Assembly: GCA_946629655.1 (NCBI GenBank)
Contig: CAMOYG010000001.1
Coordinates: forward strand, 1-45,246
From: an uncultured Lachnoclostridium sp.
GTDB lineage: Bacteria > Bacillota > Clostridia > Lachnospirales > Lachnospiraceae
Reading direction: 5' to 3'
DNA length: 45,246 bases
The notes beneath the pieces were generated by a model. That model had not been told where the DNA came from and ran no database searches. It saw only the letters and a program-made list of their open reading frames with translations. Below are positions 134 to 6,285 of this stretch, in pieces. Both the position numbers and the translations under genes were made by a program. Each line of letters starts with the position of its first letter. Position 1 is the stretch's first letter.

Positions 134-709
134 TTATGCGATGCTCATGAATATTGCAGCCATTTCTTCCGGCGTTTCCCGGTATCCGTGCTTTACCCAG
201 CTGTTGAACAGACCAAACAGTCCGTAGGCGTAATAATTACGGATATATTCGGCCTTATGCTGATCTTTGCCGGATTCGCAATTCTTTGAGGCGTCTAAGG
301 CATTTTCCCGGCTGTTTTCATCATCCGAAGCCTCCGGCAGGTCGTAGCTCCTTATAACCTCCAGAAAGGCGTTCAGGAAGGCTTCCTGGCGTCCACGCAT
401 GTATACAAGGTCAATGGTGTCCCGTACCTCCAGACAGAAGGAAAAATACTTTCCTGCGGCGTAATCACGGGCCCGGAGGTCCACCTGGCCGTTTTTCTCC
501 GTGTATCGTTCCCACAGCTTGCGGAATTTCCAGGAAAGCACCTCATCCTTTGATTTAAAATAACGAAAGTAAGTAACTCTTCCCACATCGGCTCTGGCCG
601 TCATCTCTTCAATGGAGATTTTTTCCAGAGGCTTTTCCCTCATCAGGTCCAGAAGGGCATCTCCCATGCTCTCCTTCAGCATTTCTGTCGTTTCTCTGCG
701 TCGTCTCAT
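134..709 (-). CDS. TetR/AcrR family transcriptional regulator (191 aa)
   Basis: N-terminal HTH 'ALLDLMREKPLEKISIEEMTARADVGRVTYFRYFKSKDEVL' and C-terminal 'YYAYGLFGLFNSWVKHGYRETPEEMA', typical of Firmicutes TetR proteins. Start moved from 853 to ATG 709, which follows an AGGAG SD. Confidence 0.9.
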   Translation of the reverse strand: MRRRRETTEMLKESMGDALLDLMREKPLEKISIEEMTARADVGRVTYFRYFKSKDEVLSWKFRKLWERYTEKNGQVDLRARDYAAGKYFSFCLEVRDTIDLVYMRGRQEAFLNAFLEVIRSYDLPEASDDENSRENALDASKNCESGKDQHKAEYIRNYYAYGLFGLFNSWVKHGYRETPEEMAAIFMSIA

Positions 710-791
710 CTGCTCTCCTATTTGATACATTTTTAACAAATCGTATCTTTGATACCCTGCATTGTGTTTTGTACCACTTGCTGCCATATGC

Positions 792-819
792 TTGCTTTTT
801 CCGGTATAAGTGATACTAT
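792..819 (+). promoter_or_regulatory. Putative sigma-A promoter for the NRPS-like gene
   Basis: TTGCTT (792-797), N16, TACTAT (814-819) with an extended -10 TG. It overlaps the palindrome at 811-826. Confidence 0.5.
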
Positions 820-884
820 AGTATCCGTTACAAAAATGATATACATGTATCAATATACTACTGTATCACGATACTACCATTTCA
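811..884. promoter_or_regulatory. Array of four 16-bp putative TetR operators, consensus TGATAC-N4-GTATCA
   Basis: 811-826 TGATACTATAGTATCC (perfect 14-bp core palindrome), 837-852 TGATATACATGTATCA, 853-868 ATATACTACTGTATCA, 869-884 CGATACTACCATTTCA (degenerate). All lie in the divergent tetR/NRPS spacer. Confidence 0.7.
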
Positions 885-899
885 AAGCACCACCGTCAA
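871..899 (-). promoter_or_regulatory. Putative sigma-A promoter for tetR
   Basis: Minus strand TTGACG (899-894), N17, TAGTAT (876-871) with an extended -10 TG. Confidence 0.6.
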
Positions 900-912
900 G
901 GAGGTTTTTTAT

Positions 913-3900
913 ATGCTTTCACTGGAAAATACACATACGATAGCAGATCTGGTTCGAAATGCCTGTGAGGACTACGACGACCGTGTATTCCTGCGCTATG
1001 AGCGCAATGACTCCATATATGATGTCACATACCGGCATCTGGCCGGCGAATGCCGCGCCTTTGCAGCATGGGCCAAGGACCGGAAGAACGAGCTCGGACA
1101 CCCGCTGAAGGCCGGGCTTCTGGGAAGTGCCAGCTCCCACTATATCGCTCTTATGCTGGGGCTTATGGCCGGCGGTGCCGTAGCTGTTCCGCTGGATATC
1201 CAGCTGGATTTTGAAACCCTGGCGGATAATCTGAACCGTTCGGACGTGGACGTCCTCTTCTATGACTGGGATTATGAAAGCCGTATCCGCGGTATCGGAG
1301 AACGCTGTCCGAAGCTTTCGGAGATTCGCTGCCTTCAGCAGGGAAAAAATGTCCTCTGTTCCGAGGATATTCTGGTTAACTATCTGGACGCACCCTATAA
1401 GAAAGCAGATATCCGGCCCGAGGACCTGGCCATGATCCTCTTTACATCCGGCACCACCGGCAAGGGCAAGGGCGTCATGCTCTCCCACCGGAACCTGATT
1501 GACAACACGTTTAACTATGAGGAGCCGGAAGGGGCGGACAAAGATACCTGCCTCAACGTGCTCCCGATCCATCATGTATTCTGCATTACCTGTGATATTC
1601 TGACAACAGCCCGTTACGGCGGGAATGTGGCGCTGAATCCGGAGATCGCAAAGATAAGCCGGAGCATTCAGCACTTCCAGCCCACGGTCATCCGCATGGT
1701 ACCCATGATGGCGAAGGCGCTGTACAACCGGATTCAGAGCGTATCCGCTGCAAACCCCGGGATGACCTGCAAAGAGGCGGCAAGACAGGTGCTGGGACAT
1801 CGCCTGAAGCGCATCGTATGCGGCGGCGGTTATCTCACCCCGGAGCTTGCAGAGCGCTATCTTGCCCTGGGAATCCCGATTGCACAGGGCTACGGCATGT
1901 CCGAATGCGCACCCAAAATATCAGTTCCGGACTGGTCCAGAACCGACAAGGCCGCTTCCGTCGGACGCCTGGTGGACCGGTGTCAGGTTCGTATCGTGGA
2001 CGGGGAAATCCAGGTAAAGAGCCCCTCTGTCATGATGGGATATTATAATGATCCCGAGAATACCCGGGCTGCCCTTACCGACGACGGATGGCTTCGGACC
2101 GGCGATCTCGGCCGGCTGGATGAGGAGAACTTCCTCTATCTCACCGGCCGCAAGAAGAACCTGATTATTCTTGCCAACGGCGAAAATGTGGCGCCGGAGG
2201 AGCTGGAAAATAAATTCGTGGACGAGCCCCTGACCGAGGATGTGCTGATCTACGGCGCCGATGATATGATCTGCGCGGAGATCTATCCGAACTACAAATA
2301 TGCGGATGATGAGGGGATCCGGGATGTGAAGAATGCCGTGGAGGAACTGGTGCAGAAGGTCAATGCTGCTCTTCCCGGATTCAAGCGGATACTCCGGGTT
2401 CACGTGCGGAAAAAGCCCTTCAAAAAGACCTCCTCGAAAAAGATTATCCGGGCGGCCTTCTTCGAAGAACTGAAGCAGAAAAAGGAAGCCGAGAATACAA
2501 AGAAGCTTCCGGAAAATGAGATTCAGAATACCATTTACGAGCTGGCGGCAGCCCAGCTGGGTCACCGGGACTTCGGCACGGATACGGATCTCGGGGAGGC
2601 GGGACTGGATTCCCTCGGATGTGTGATGCTGCTCTCCGCCCTCTATGAGGGCCTGCAGCTCTCTCTGACCCTGGATGACCTGATGCAGCACCGTTCTGTG
2701 CTGGCCCTGGAAGCCCTGTACAATGAAAGAAAGAATGCGGAGACGCCGGATTATTCCCCGAGAAGCATTTATCCTCTCACCACCGTCCAGCTGTACTTTG
2801 CCTATGTGATGCGGGGCAATACCACCTCCAATCTCCCCTTCTGCTGGAAGCTGGATGAGGATGTGGATACGGATCGGCTGATTCGGTCGGTGAAAGCCCT
2901 GTTCGAGCTGCATCCGGAGATGAAGGATATCATTCAGCAGGATACCGACGGCGTATACAAAAACTTCCGGGATGACAGCCGCCCGGTGGAGATTCCGGTC
3001 ATTGATATGAGTGAAAAGGAATGGCAGGAAACCTTCCAGTCGATGGTTGCGCCCTTTATGTACACACCGGGTGAGCTTCTGTATCATATCGGCATTTACC
3101 GTACGGAGGTTAACCGCTACTTCTTCTTCGATCTGGCCCACGCTCTGGGCGACGGCATGAGCCTGAACGTGATTTTTGAGGATCTGAACCGGCTGTATGC
3201 GGAGGATCGCCCTGAAGATGTAAAGCCGGAGAAATATACCTTCTATGAGTATATTCTCGATGAGCAGGCCAAAGACCAGGCCGGCCTGCGGCAGAAAAAC
3301 ATAGAGTATTATACAGATTTGATGAAGAATTTCCGTGTCCGGAAAAGTATTCTTACGAGAAGGGACTGCTATGATCTGGAGAATGGGCGGAATGCAACCC
3401 TGCGGAATCACTTTTATCAGCTGAGCCGCAGCCGTCTTCAGGGCTACTGCCAGAAGTTCGGCGTATCGGAAAATGTCGTCTTCCTGACAGCATTCAATTA
3501 CTGCATCGGTCTCTTCAGCAATGAGACAGATACGGTCAGCTCCAGCATTCACAGCGGCCGCACGGACAGCCGCTGGAACCGGCTGGTGGGACCGCTGTTC
3601 AGGACCTACTTCTACCGCCAGACCGAAAGGCCTCATGAGAAGGTATCGGACCTCCTGAAACGCGCCGGAGATCAGATCCTTCAAACCATGCGCTGCTACA
3701 TCTCCACCCAGCATCCGGATGAGATGTTTTTCCAGTACCAAGGAGACATCCTGAATATTGATTCCATCGGCGGACGGCCTGCGGCAAAACAGCCCATCCA
3801 TCTGGATTCCCTGCCCTTCCATCTGATGATTATGTGTGACTGGCGCGGATACTATTACGAGCTAAGGTACTGGGAGAACCGGTTCGACCGGGAACAGCTG

Positions 3901-4566
3901 GAGGTTTTCATGACAGCCTATGAGGCCGTGGTGATGGCCATGATGCAGGTAAATTCCGTGGACGAGATACGCCCGAAGCTTCCGGAAACCATCTATCCGA
4001 AGCACTACGAGCTCCAGAAGGGAGAACTGGAGCGCGCCCTCTCGGTGGTCAGGAAAAACCGGCTCATGCCGGAGATTCCGGAGGACAGTCGGCTGAAGGT
4101 TTATGTGCTGGATGAGACCCTTCAGAAGAAGCCCTTCGGCGCCTGGGGACGTCTGTATATCCGGGATCAGGAATTCCCGGATATGACAGCCTCCTATAAG
4201 AATCCCTTCGGGGAAGGCAGAATCTGTGAGACACCTTATACGGCAAGGATTCTTCCGGACGGTTCCCTGGACCTCCTGGAACACAGCGGCCGCACCATCA
4301 TGGCCGAGCGGACCATGGGCCGTTCCTTCCCGAATCTCTATGCGATGGAACAGGCACTCCTCACCTGTCCCGGCGTAACATCTGCGGAATGCTTTGTCAG
4401 CTACGGCGGGAACAACGCGCTGCAGCTCACGGCAGAGCTCGAACTTGACGATGCGGCCAAACAAGAAATGTATACAGCGGAGTCGGTCAGCGCGTTCCTT
4501 ACGGAAAAGCTGAACCACCCCTGTGAGGTACAGTCCGTTCATCTGCGGACGGACGCTGTCCGGTAA
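913..4566 (+). CDS. Stand-alone NRPS-like protein: acyl-CoA-synthetase-type adenylation domain, phosphopantetheine carrier, condensation domain and truncated adenylation fragment (1217 aa)
   Basis: AAGGAGG SD. A-domain motifs ILFTSGTTGKGKGV, GYGMSE, GWLRTGDLG, GRKKNLIILANGENVAPEELE and KTSSKKIIR. Carrier motif GLDSLG (Ser567). Condensation motif AHALGDG (His743/Asp747). The C-terminal VYVLDETLQKKPFGAWGRLYI and ARILPDGSL resemble the second half of an NRPS A domain. Confidence 0.9.
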   Translation: MLSLENTHTIADLVRNACEDYDDRVFLRYERNDSIYDVTYRHLAGECRAFAAWAKDRKNELGHPLKAGLLGSASSHYIALMLGLMAGGAVAVPLDIQLDFETLADNLNRSDVDVLFYDWDYESRIRGIGERCPKLSEIRCLQQGKNVLCSEDILVNYLDAPYKKADIRPEDLAMILFTSGTTGKGKGVMLSHRNLIDNTFNYEEPEGADKDTCLNVLPIHHVFCITCDILTTARYGGNVALNPEIAKISRSIQHFQPTVIRMVPMMAKALYNRIQSVSAANPGMTCKEAARQVLGHRLKRIVCGGGYLTPELAERYLALGIPIAQGYGMSECAPKISVPDWSRTDKAASVGRLVDRCQVRIVDGEIQVKSPSVMMGYYNDPENTRAALTDDGWLRTGDLGRLDEENFLYLTGRKKNLIILANGENVAPEELENKFVDEPLTEDVLIYGADDMICAEIYPNYKYADDEGIRDVKNAVEELVQKVNAALPGFKRILRVHVRKKPFKKTSSKKIIRAAFFEELKQKKEAENTKKLPENEIQNTIYELAAAQLGHRDFGTDTDLGEAGLDSLGCVMLLSALYEGLQLSLTLDDLMQHRSVLALEALYNERKNAETPDYSPRSIYPLTTVQLYFAYVMRGNTTSNLPFCWKLDEDVDTDRLIRSVKALFELHPEMKDIIQQDTDGVYKNFRDDSRPVEIPVIDMSEKEWQETFQSMVAPFMYTPGELLYHIGIYRTEVNRYFFFDLAHALGDGMSLNVIFEDLNRLYAEDRPEDVKPEKYTFYEYILDEQAKDQAGLRQKNIEYYTDLMKNFRVRKSILTRRDCYDLENGRNATLRNHFYQLSRSRLQGYCQKFGVSENVVFLTAFNYCIGLFSNETDTVSSSIHSGRTDSRWNRLVGPLFRTYFYRQTERPHEKVSDLLKRAGDQILQTMRCYISTQHPDEMFFQYQGDILNIDSIGGRPAAKQPIHLDSLPFHLMIMCDWRGYYYELRYWENRFDREQLEVFMTAYEAVVMAMMQVNSVDEIRPKLPETIYPKHYELQKGELERALSVVRKNRLMPEIPEDSRLKVYVLDETLQKKPFGAWGRLYIRDQEFPDMTASYKNPFGEGRICETPYTARILPDGSLDLLEHSGRTIMAERTMGRSFPNLYAMEQALLTCPGVTSAECFVSYGGNNALQLTAELELDDAAKQEMYTAESVSAFLTEKLNHPCEVQSVHLRTDAVR

Positions 4567-6240
4567 TCAGTCTTCATCATTATACAGCCAGAGGGCGCCT
4601 TTGGAAGGATCGCCAGCGCCCTTCCGATACTGCCGGAGTATCCCGTCCGCGGGATGGTCCGGCTTTTTGACATGAGACAGCCTCTCTTTTATAACCTCAT
4701 CCGGCACATCCAGGTGAATGATGCGGTTTTTCAGGTCGATGGTAATGATATCTCCGTTCTCCACCGCGGCCAGCGGTCCGCCCTCCCAGGCCTCCGGGGA
4801 AATGTGGCCGACACACGGTCCGCGGGTGGCGCCGGAGAATCTTCCGTCGGTGATCATGGCGGTTGTTTTATGAAGTCCCATGCCGACCAGCATGGCGGCG
4901 GGGATGGAAAGCTCCCGCATGCCGGGACCGCCCTTCGGCCCCTCGTAGCGCACCACAAGCACGCTGCCGGGCTTTACGGCACCGGATTGCAGATGATCTC
5001 TCACCTCTTCCTCCGAGTCAAATACGACGGCAGGACCGGTATGACAGAACATCTCCGGCTCTACCCCGCTCTGCTTTACCACACAGCCGCCTGGAGCAAG
5101 ATTGCCGTGGAGAACGGCAAAGCACCCTTCGGGATACAGCGGGTCATCGACGGTATGAATTACCTCCCGGTTGATCGGGAAGTCAAAGCGGTCGAGATAA
5201 TCCCGGAGCGTTGTTCCGAATACCATGGGCACATCCAGGTCCAGGTAATCCCGGATGGATAAAAGGGTTGCCCCCACGCCGCCGGCAAGGTGCCAGTCAT
5301 TCAGATTGTATCTGGACGAGGGCTTGAACTTTGCAATCAGAGGAACATCCTTCTGGATGGCATCAAAGTCGGACAGATTGATATTAAGGCCCAGTACCTT
5401 AGAGATAGCCATGACGTGCATCACCGCGTTTGTGGAGCCGCCGGTGGCCGCAATATGACGGATTCCGTTCTTGATGGATGCTTCCGTCATGAACTCATGG
5501 GACGTCCGGCCTTGCCGGGTCAGCTCCACAATCCGCTCTCCCACATCCCGCGCCATCTTTGCCTTGGCCGCGGAGGCGCTCAGCATGGTGGTGCTGCCGA
5601 TGGGAGCCAGGCCGATGGCCTCAGCGAAGACGCCCATGGTATTGGCGGTACCGTACATGGAACAGGTGCCGCAGGAGGCACACATATTGCTGCGGTATCT
5701 GGAAAATGTCTCCGCCGAAATCTTTCCGGATGTGACGCTTCCCATGGATTCCTTCAGGTCACAGGTAACCCATGTCGCCTTATCATAGGGATCTTCATAG
5801 GGAAGCATGGCGCCGGCCGTGATAAACACGGAGGGCTTGTTCAGCGCCGCGCAGGCCATGAGCATGCCGGGAACAATCTTATCGCAGGAGCACAGGAAGA
5901 CAAGTCCGTCATATCCCTGGGAATTAACCATCGCCTCGATGGAGGCGGCGATCAGGTCCCGCTGGGGGAGAATATAGTGCATGCCGAAGCCCTGTCCGTG
6001 GGCGTCGCAGGGACTGGGCACGGTAAACTCCACCGGTGTGCCGCCGGCAGCCCAGATTCCCGACTTGATGATTCCGGCCATTTCTTTAAAGGGCTTATGC
6101 CCCGGATTGCCGTCACTCCAGGAGTTGACGACGCCGATGACCGGATTGGCCAGATCCCTCATCCGGTATCCGGCAGATTCCATAAGGCCCACATAATAGG
6201 CCTCGGTAACCTCTTCCCTGTGTTTTCCCCGTATCTCCAT
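4567..6240 (-). CDS. ilvD: Dihydroxy-acid dehydratase, IlvD/Edd family (557 aa); substrate uncertain
   Basis: Motifs [46 protein letters not shown] and [14 protein letters not shown] 6240 follows AAAGGAG. Confidence 0.85.
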
Positions 6241-6253
6241 AGATACTCCTTTC

Positions 6254-6285
6254 AAAAAAGCGGCTTCCGTGAAGCCGCTTTTTTT
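6254..6285. terminator. Bidirectional intrinsic terminator
   Basis: AAAAAA-GCGGCTTC-CGT-GAAGCCGC-TTTTTTT: a perfect stem with A and T tracts on either side, 15 nt after the GNAT stop. Confidence 0.9.

What the first reader, a model, noticed from the sequence alone, without database searches (positions are those of the whole stretch)
134..4566. TetR-controlled single-gene A-T-C NRPS-like system: candidate N-acyl amide (fatty acid amide) synthase
Seen: one 1217-aa protein fuses three parts. Its adenylation domain has long-chain fatty acyl-CoA ligase motifs (GYGMSE, GRKKNLIILANGENVAPEELE) rather than amino-acid A-domain motifs. It also has an intact carrier Ser (GLDS567) and a condensation domain that keeps the catalytic HxxxDG (first His replaced by Ala). 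There is no thioesterase or reductase, no second module and no tailoring or export gene, only a divergent TetR. Established: terminal C domains can release an acyl chain onto a free amine, and gut Clostridia have been reported to make fatty acid amides with minimal C/T/A NRPS-like gene sets. Inference: this is a one-polypeptide version that activates a fatty acid and joins it to a soluble amine or alcohol, for signalling or fatty-acid detoxification, induced through the TetR ligand. The PPTase must be encoded elsewhere.
Basis: partly seen in the sequence, partly recalled or inferred. Interest (0 to 1): 0.8.

Follow-up and report, generated by a model that had tools for sequence, protein, structure and literature searches.

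The report
One-piece acyl-transfer enzyme of gut bacteria
This is an intact, strongly conserved single protein of gut and rumen bacteria, also found in rumen fungi, that likely picks up a fatty acid and attaches it to a small molecule; it was pieced together from two different enzyme lineages, and in some hosts it appears to share a control switch with the cell's fatty-acid synthesis genes.

Summary
Confirmed, with one miss. The 1217-aa ORF is A(acyl)-T-C, but it ends in a folded, conserved stub of a second, dead adenylation domain. It belongs to an uncharacterised stand-alone family (279 GTDB stretches; Pecoramyces and Piromyces copies). Ser567, His743 and Asp747 are invariant in 72 of 72 sequences, and dN/dS is about 0.06-0.11 in every domain, the stub included.

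It is not a fused copy of the known fatty-acid-amide (FAA) system. Its A domain is closest to FAA A domains, but its C domain comes from multimodular NRPSs (AU test rejects C-domain monophyly with FAA, p=0.006).

The TetR pairing is real here (three conserved GATAC-N4-GTATC sites) but clade-specific: 2 of 72 loci. Other clades use a MarR (7 of 72) or the box found at the fabH promoter (9 of 75), which matches a published FabT site. That argues for lipid homeostasis, not fatty-acid detoxification.

Best reading: ATP-driven acylation of a free amine (0.5); O-acylation of a lipid is the main rival (0.25). No PPTase was found in this 88%-complete genome, and acpS is missing from its usual site. 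The scan noted this family once before, in another genome.

The parts
134..709 (-). TetR-family regulator (TetR_N + TetR_C_8), 191 aa from the likely ATG at 709; the longest ORF starts at TTG 853
   Evidence: 81% orthologue beside the same gene in genus-mate G353, also L001, L216-L218
812..825 (.). Predicted TetR operator 1, perfect GATAC-N4-GTATC palindrome
   Evidence: same site in L120; the pattern also stands in L001
838..851 (.). Predicted TetR operator 2 (1 mismatch; perfect in L120 with a different spacer)
854..867 (.). Predicted TetR operator 3 (1 mismatch; perfect in L001 with a different spacer)
871..899 (-). Promoter-like site for tetR (TTGACG-17-TAGTAT, extended TG); consensus match only, not above the shuffle rate
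898..904 (+). Ribosome-binding site AAGGAGG of the large gene
   Evidence: sequence; conserved in L001 and L120
913..2487 (+). Acyl-adenylation domain (aa 1-525), intact P-loop, A5, A7, A8 and Lys510; closest to FAA-pathway A domains
2530..2715 (+). Carrier (T) domain, aa 540-601, Ser567 at 2611-2613
2746..4002 (+). Condensation domain, aa 612-1030, AHxxGDG with His743 at 3139-3141; derived from multimodular NRPS C domains
4003..4563 (+). Stub of a second, catalytically dead A domain (A6-A8 region and small subdomain; P-loop half gone, no catalytic Asp or Lys), folded and conserved

Best explanation
The protein is a stand-alone A-T-C enzyme with a structural stub that likely activates a fatty acid with ATP, loads it on its own phosphopantetheinylated Ser567, and likely uses His743 to transfer the acyl chain to a free amine, releasing an N-acyl amide without a thioesterase. 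Shown: domain anatomy, invariant catalytic residues, purifying selection, stand-alone context, and the separate origins of the A and C domains. Inferred: a fatty-acid substrate (kinship to FAA A domains; a fab-operon box upstream in one clade), carrier loading, a free amine as acceptor (no downstream carrier, first His lost as in other chain-releasing C domains), and a role of the stub in keeping the C-A platform fold. Expression is likely tied to lipid status by regulators that differ between clades; here it is a TetR acting on three GATAC-N4-GTATC sites.
For: Thr178, Ser179, Gly180, Lys186, Glu331, Asp398, Arg413, Lys510, Ser567, His743, Asp747 and Gly748 are invariant in 72 of 72 full-length sequences. 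dN/dS over 24 close pairs: A 0.057, T 0.097, C 0.061, stub 0.062 and 0.114. The nearest free-standing A domains (37-42% identity) lie beside a free-standing C with the FAA motif xHxxxD[A/S] in 14 of 14 loci read; SCP2, hydrolase and C genes were confirmed by Pfam in 3 of 3 checked. In the A tree the family sits with FAA A domains (SH-aLRT 91, open fork with one A-T protein), inside a clade whose members are all carrier-linked (96); the genome's other acyl ligase falls outside. The Asp that binds the amino group of amino-acid substrates (position recalled) is absent. FAA C domains acylate free amines (PMC13310621), and terminal C domains carry SHxxxD (PMC10510592); this family has AHxxGDG in 68 of 72 and SHxxxDG in fungal copies. 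A matrix built only from fab-operon promoters scores 14 or more upstream of 9 of 75 family genes against 2 of 687 control genes, and both controls share the same intergenic site. 49 of 50 carrier genomes have a PPTase.
Against: No biochemistry. The C domain is not FAA-type, so amine selectivity cannot be carried over from that family. No PPTase was found in this genome, and acpS is missing from the rex-nnr site where three genus-mates have it. A FabT-type box would switch the gene off when acyl chains are plentiful, which is odd for an enzyme that spends free fatty acid. The acyl pocket differs from FAA A domains (Lys335 in 54 of 64 against Val/Leu in 13 of 13; Gly306 against Ala), so the acid may not be a plain long chain. 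The A domain has no FAAL-type insertion and may also make acyl-CoA. 3 of 80 loci are split or stopped.
Confidence: 0.5

Rival explanations
1. Lipid-remodelling acyltransferase: same A-to-T loading, but the C domain O-acylates a hydroxyl (lysolipid, glycolipid, hydroxy fatty acid or bile acid/sterol), or hands the chain to the cell's ACP. It would be a C-domain analogue of E. coli Aas (recalled).
For: In five genomes a strict fab box has only 12 sites: 5 at fabH, 5 at this gene (genomes chosen for having it), 2 before a divergent HlyIII gene. The box matches the published FabT probe ANTTTGATTATCAAATT (PMC10138225), and a FabT-like MarR is present in 4 of 4 such genomes (below cut-off). The TetR's nearest other relatives (49%) lead a PLD-family / CrtO acyltransferase / MGDG synthase operon. 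The TetR-clade genomes G000, G353 and G301 lack fabF. MBOAT-DHHW genes follow the gene in 3 of 80 loci.
Against: No membrane anchor is evident in the predicted secondary structure. No enrichment in genomes lacking fabF: present in 44 of 50 and 4 of 7 carriers against 247 of 300 family genomes. The fab box is in 9 of 75 loci only, from one subclade. Ester-forming C domains exist but are rarer than amide-forming ones (recalled).
Confidence: 0.25
2. Lipo-initiation in trans: the acyl chain is condensed with an amino acid on a separate carrier protein encoded elsewhere, docking on the C-stub platform.
For: The C domain descends from carrier-dependent NRPS C domains and keeps the Gly of HxxxDG typical of them (PMC13310621). 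The stub keeps the C-A platform geometry.
Against: No partner carrier or C gene in 80 loci. This genome has no other C domain and only acpP plus one weak carrier hit. The gene moved alone between genomic sites and into fungi.
Confidence: 0.1
3. It works only as an acyl-CoA ligase; T, C and the stub are passengers or regulatory.
For: Best family hits are CoA ligases; no FAAL insertion; no PPTase found in this genome; two fungal fragments have lost the His.
Against: Ser567, His743 and Asp747 invariant in 72 of 72, and C as constrained as A; nearest A relatives are carrier-linked.
Confidence: 0.08
4. Decayed remnant of a larger NRPS without function.
For: The second A domain is truncated; 3 of 80 loci are broken.
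Against: 71 of 80 loci full-length at 1193-1234 aa, dN/dS about 0.06-0.11, conserved operators, same architecture down to 32% identity.
Confidence: 0.02

Closest known systems
Gut-Clostridia fatty acid amide (FAA) NRPS-like pathway (OaaA/OaaACP/OaaC; ebf/ecf)
   Same: Related acyl-activating A domain (37-42%), carrier relay, terminal C with no downstream carrier or TE, same hosts; FAA-type loci also have divergent TetRs (4 checked).
   Different: Fused, not free-standing; C domain of another lineage (AU p=0.006), AHxxGDG instead of (D/H)HxxxD[S/A]; no conserved SCP2, hydrolase or PPTase neighbour; carries an A-domain stub.
Multimodular C-A-T-(R) NRPSs of Lachnospiraceae (e.g. locus L099, C-A-T-C-A-T-R)
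   Same: Source lineage of the C domain (SH-aLRT 100) and probably of the T and stub (profile hits).
   Different: The second A has lost its N-terminal core and catalytic residues; no second T or R; first His replaced; acyl-type first A.
Carboxylic acid reductase and A-T-R enzymes
   Same: Acyl A fused to T; best Foldseek hit of the A-T model is a CAR A-PCP didomain (5msw); A-T-R proteins are next of kin in the A tree.
   Different: C domain instead of a reductase, so transfer rather than reduction.
Fungal terminal C (CT) domains and single-module A-T-C enzymes
   Same: Domain order; first His replaced (SHxxxD per PMC10510592).
   Different: Those activate amino or aryl acids and cyclise or dimerise (recalled); kinship not tested here.
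NRPS modules with truncated A domains (e.g. fimsbactin FbsE)
   Same: A truncated A domain kept beside a C-type domain (PMC11661926, passage).
   Different: FbsE has a downstream carrier loaded in trans within a cluster; here there is none.

Membership tests
FAA NRPS-like pathway (Oaa/ebf) | Free-standing A, ACP and C proteins | tested here: not met
   Single ORF, fused in 71 of 80 loci; definition from PMC13310621
FAA NRPS-like pathway (Oaa/ebf) | C motif (D/H)HxxxD[S/A] | tested here: not met
   AHxxGDG in 68 of 72; Gly748 in 72 of 72; FAA-type loci show xHxxxD[A/S] in 14 of 14
FAA NRPS-like pathway (Oaa/ebf) | C domain in the monophyletic FAA clade | tested here: not met
   Trees; AU p=0.00575. 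FAA references were identified by gene set and motif, not by OaaC itself
FAA NRPS-like pathway (Oaa/ebf) | Acyl-type A domain of the FAA lineage | tested here: met
   Nearest free-standing relatives, 37-42%; tree support 91; 70 positions invariant across 64 family and 13 FAA sequences
FAA NRPS-like pathway (Oaa/ebf) | Cluster with lipid-transfer, hydrolase and PPTase genes | tested here: not met
   No conserved neighbour in 80 loci; Pfam on one representative per neighbour cluster found no SCP2 or PPTase; unrelated hydrolases beside L034, L052, L061, L063
FAA NRPS-like pathway (Oaa/ebf) | Forms a fatty acid amide from a free amine | not testable with these tools
   Needs in vitro reconstitution or heterologous expression
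Long-chain acyl-CoA ligase (FACL) | Score over a curated FACL model cut-off | tested here: not met
   Best PRK06187 226 bits against cut-off 476
Fatty acyl-AMP ligase (FAAL) | FAAL-specific insertion blocking the CoA step | tested here: not met
   No insertion relative to CoA ligase 8wev or in the A alignment, where another row shows one; position of the insertion is recalled
Canonical two-module NRPS | Second active A, downstream T and release domain | tested here: not met
   Stub lacks the P-loop, A7 Asp and A10 Lys; no T, TE or R after it
Carboxylic acid reductase (A-T-R) | C-terminal reductase domain | tested here: not met
FabT regulon member (other clades, not this window) | FabT box overlapping the promoter, shared with the fab operon | tested here: met
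   9 of 75 loci; same box at fabH in 4 of 4 and 5 of 5 genomes; absent in the window
FabT regulon member (other clades, not this window) | FabT binds and represses | not testable with these tools
   FabT-like MarR present, below the curated cut-off

The most novel reading that the evidence does not exclude
A second, independently assembled route to acyl conjugates in the gut: an FAA-type acyl ligase was grafted onto a T-C-(A stub) fragment of a peptide synthetase, the elongation C domain was converted into a releasing acyltransferase held in shape by the stub, the gene was wired into the core fatty-acid (FabT) regulon as a lipid-homeostasis enzyme, and it was passed to anaerobic rumen fungi. 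Its product would be an unassigned gut lipid made by hundreds of species.
Probability: 0.35. Interest if true: 0.8.

Novelty: new variant of a known kind. Interest (0 to 1): 0.6.

Why it matters
Gut-bacterial acyl amides act on host GPCRs and some are linked to bowel disease (PMC10871352, PMC13310621). Searches for them use the free-standing FAA C and A genes, and this family is labelled only 'AMP-binding protein'. It is a one-gene system, so it is easy to express and test, and it could assign a source to an orphan gut lipid. It is also a natural example of NRPS re-engineering: an acyl A joined to an elongation C, with part of the next A kept under purifying selection, probably as a scaffold. 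The shared box with fab operons points to primary lipid physiology rather than occasional secondary metabolism.

Tried and rejected
TetR as a defining part of the system: rejected; adjacent in 2 of 72 loci with enough upstream DNA, plus the window clade. A conserved gene neighbourhood: none; the commonest neighbour clusters are generic. The protein as a fused FAA cluster: rejected for the C domain. Specific to fatty-acid auxotrophs: rejected. PPTase in this genome: not found by PF01648, PF22624, motif scan, tblastn or two custom profiles; the genome is 88% complete, so absence is not shown. Pfam and NCBIfam on the tail alone: nothing. Self-duplication of the first A domain as the stub's source: no similarity. 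Rumen RNA runs hold contigs over most of the gene, but contigs cannot show transcription, strand or level, and neighbours are covered too; not used as evidence. OaaC was not among the structure hits, so no direct comparison. The careful C tree did not finish; both C trees and the A tree are quick trees, and 23 of 56 rows (long branches and near-duplicates) were dropped for the AU test. The carrier-domain check used a wrong profile through a file-name clash and was redone. Class-wide sample: 0 of 398 other genomes. Literature: 10 searches found no description of this fused family; Chang et al. 2021 is not held, and its text and supplements may list such genes.
Full report
Observation. The ORF 913-4566 (+) encodes 1217 aa with Pfam AMP-binding, AMP-binding_C_3, PP-binding and Condensation above their cut-offs. 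The quoted motifs are at the stated residues, including Ser567 and His743. A TetR gene is divergent (134-709) and an ilvD-family gene converges right after the stop. GC is that of the genome (0.548 against 0.558). The genome has no other C domain.

The last 190 residues have no Pfam hit but match the A6-A8 region of NRPS A domains. A 72-sequence profile extends the match through the small subdomain of TycB, SrfA-C, McyA/B and GrsA, and the language-model search returns AMP-binding_C clusters. The P-loop half is gone, and the A7 Asp and A10 Lys are missing (motif names recalled). AlphaFold gives C plus stub pLDDT 91 and pTM 0.91. The model superposes on LgrA C-A (6mfz: Z 24.5, 474 residues, rmsd 3.9), so the stub likely keeps part of the C-A platform described in PMC10510592 (passages).

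The family. At least 726 proteins among 7994 scored candidates match, and all 120 listed carry the same four Pfam domains. 279 stretches of GTDB genomes encode a relative; 80 were fetched, nearly all Lachnospiraceae and related gut Clostridia. 71 of 80 are full-length (1193-1234 aa), 3 are split or stopped, and the other 6 are cut by contig ends or by start calling. It is patchy: 5 whole, 1 cut and 1 broken in 300 genomes of the family, 0 of 398 across the class, and 1 of 5 genus-mates, a partial copy in G353. All catalytic residues checked are invariant in 72 of 72, as are six stub residues; dN/dS over 24 pairs is 0.057 (A), 0.097 (T), 0.061 (C), 0.062 and 0.114 (stub). The architecture persists to 32% identity. 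It includes whole copies from the anaerobic fungi Pecoramyces and Piromyces, with carrier Ser and SHxxxDG intact. Five fungal-type rows form one clade (100) with a distinct composition, which fits old transfer rather than contamination; direction is inferred, as the tree is unrooted. Transfer of bacterial NRPS genes to these fungi is known in general (PMC8106346, passages).

Origin. The nearest free-standing A domains (37-42%) sit in SCP2-hydrolase-C-T-A loci with xHxxxD[A/S] C domains (14 of 14 read). That is the gene set and motif published for FAA pathways (PMC10871352, passages; PMC13310621, abstract, introduction, section 8 and passages). The A tree places the family beside them (91, open fork) inside a carrier-linked clade (96) that also holds A-T-R proteins. 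The C domain tells another story: profile scores are 130-190 bits for a group of Lachnospiraceae multimodular NRPS C domains and 12-38 for FAA C domains. Both trees put it with the former (100), and the AU test rejects a clade with FAA (p=0.00575). So the protein is a chimera and, if it makes amides, does so by convergence.

Context and regulation. Neighbours differ from locus to locus; there is no second C or carrier gene in 80 loci. Here three GATAC-N4-GTATC sites lie within 56 bp between the two genes. They are the only matches in the 45 kb window (0.76 expected, 5 of 100 shuffles reach 3) and the only cluster among 58 sites in the genome. They are conserved with changed spacers in L001 and L120. 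Binding by the TetR is inferred. A TetR is adjacent in only 2 of 72 loci and a MarR in 7 of 72, the latter clade with its own palindrome in 10 of 75 upstream regions. In a third clade TTTGA-N3-TCAAA stands upstream in 11 of 75 (1.05 expected). The same box is at the fabH promoter in 4 of 4 genomes and in 20 of 30 fabK-centred loci. A matrix from fab promoters alone picks 9 of 75 family promoters against 2 of 687 controls. In five genomes chosen for having the box, a strict pattern has 12 sites: 5 at fabH, 5 at this gene, 2 before a HlyIII gene. It matches the FabT probe in PMC10138225 (passage); FabT represses when bound by acyl-ACP (PMC13046290, passages). These nine loci are kin, so this counts as one event, not nine. 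The window's TetR has 49% relatives that lead a membrane-lipid operon.

Results against. No PPTase was found in this genome by five approaches, against 49 of 50 carriers and 40 of 40 relatives. acpS is absent between rex and nnr on a continuous contig, where genus-mates have it; contigs from 2 of 4 other runs bridge the same junction. An Sfp-type gene on unassembled DNA remains possible: the genome is 88% complete, and the best PPTase hit lies in an open frame of 200 aa or more in 34 of 49 carriers. fabH, fabF and fabK are also not found here, and fabF is not found in G353 or G301, so the acid would be imported in this clade; across the family there is no link to fabF loss. The acyl pocket differs from FAA enzymes at several positions.

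Mechanism. Step 1, adenylation of a carboxylic acid: strongly implied by intact motifs. Step 2, loading of Ser567: inferred from invariance and carrier-linked kin. Step 3, His743-dependent transfer to a free acceptor: inferred from invariance and the lack of any downstream carrier. A fatty acid as donor is likely; an amine as acceptor is the commonest C-domain chemistry (recalled) but is the weakest link. I give amide formation 0.5, O-acylation or lipid remodelling 0.25, a carrier in trans 0.1, CoA ligase only 0.08, remnant 0.02. Co-repression with fatty-acid synthesis argues against detoxification of excess fatty acid as the family's role.

Novelty. It works like the FAA pathway but is not a member: four defining features were tested and not met. 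Ten literature searches found no description of the family (most hits seen only as listings; PMC2766626 was opened and added nothing); Chang et al. 2021 could not be read. The separate origins of A and C, the fab box, the TetR operators, the fungal copies and the acpS loss do not appear in the lines of that note that I saw. Verdict: new variant of a known kind, interest 0.6.

Noticed in passing
G000:C26:14551-14691 (L215:952-1092): acpS is missing between rex and nnr, where genus-mates G351, G353 and G355 carry it; no PPTase, fabH, fabF or fabK was found, yet acpP is kept beside plsX (C92). Possibly a fatty-acid auxotroph; the genome is 88% complete.
   Followed up: partly
L216:9240-14193: In a 99%-identical metagenome contig a Tn7-like element (TnsA-like endonuclease, integrase, AAA ATPase and a fourth ORF) lies about 650 bp beyond the end of tetR, past the point where the window's contig ends.
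   Followed up: partly
P0167, P0290, P0291, P0292, P0221; fragments P0170, P0176, P0214: Copies named from Pecoramyces and Piromyces, plus unnamed ones of the same type; two fragments have lost the catalytic His.
   Followed up: partly
L197 and L200, around 1501-1519: The fab box also lies before a divergent HlyIII-family gene in two genomes, suggesting a three-member fatty-acid regulon.
   Followed up: partly
L047, L048, L052, L053, L054, L056, L061, L078 upstream regions: Strong palindrome TATTTCGCA-T-TGCGAAATA with an adjacent MarR gene in most; ligand unknown.
   Followed up: partly
L063, L070, L074 upstream regions: A fourth palindrome, ATTCGACC-N3-GGTCGAAT, with no regulator identified.
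   Followed up: no
L100, L101, L102 (about 1000-aa ORFs): A-T-R proteins resembling carboxylic acid reductases in Lachnospiraceae, with A domains related to this family.
   Followed up: no
L015:5991-11597: One record fuses a glycogen branching enzyme in frame to the N-terminus of the A-T-C protein (1868 aa; cluster of 6 sequences, P0303); may be a lost stop or an assembly effect.
   Followed up: no
L231:8001-11662 and similar human-gut contigs: TetR relatives (49%) head a PLD-family, CrtO-like acyltransferase, MGDG-synthase operon, flanked in some contigs by recombinase-like ORFs.
   Followed up: partly
window 4567-6255: ilvD/Edd-family dehydratase below the ilvD cut-off, ending immediately beside the large gene's stop with no terminator gap; absent from this place in two genus-mates.
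   Followed up: no
L003, L005, L006: The gene is followed by an MBOAT-DHHW pair; in L006 and several kin it lies near spoIVB and spo0A.
   Followed up: no
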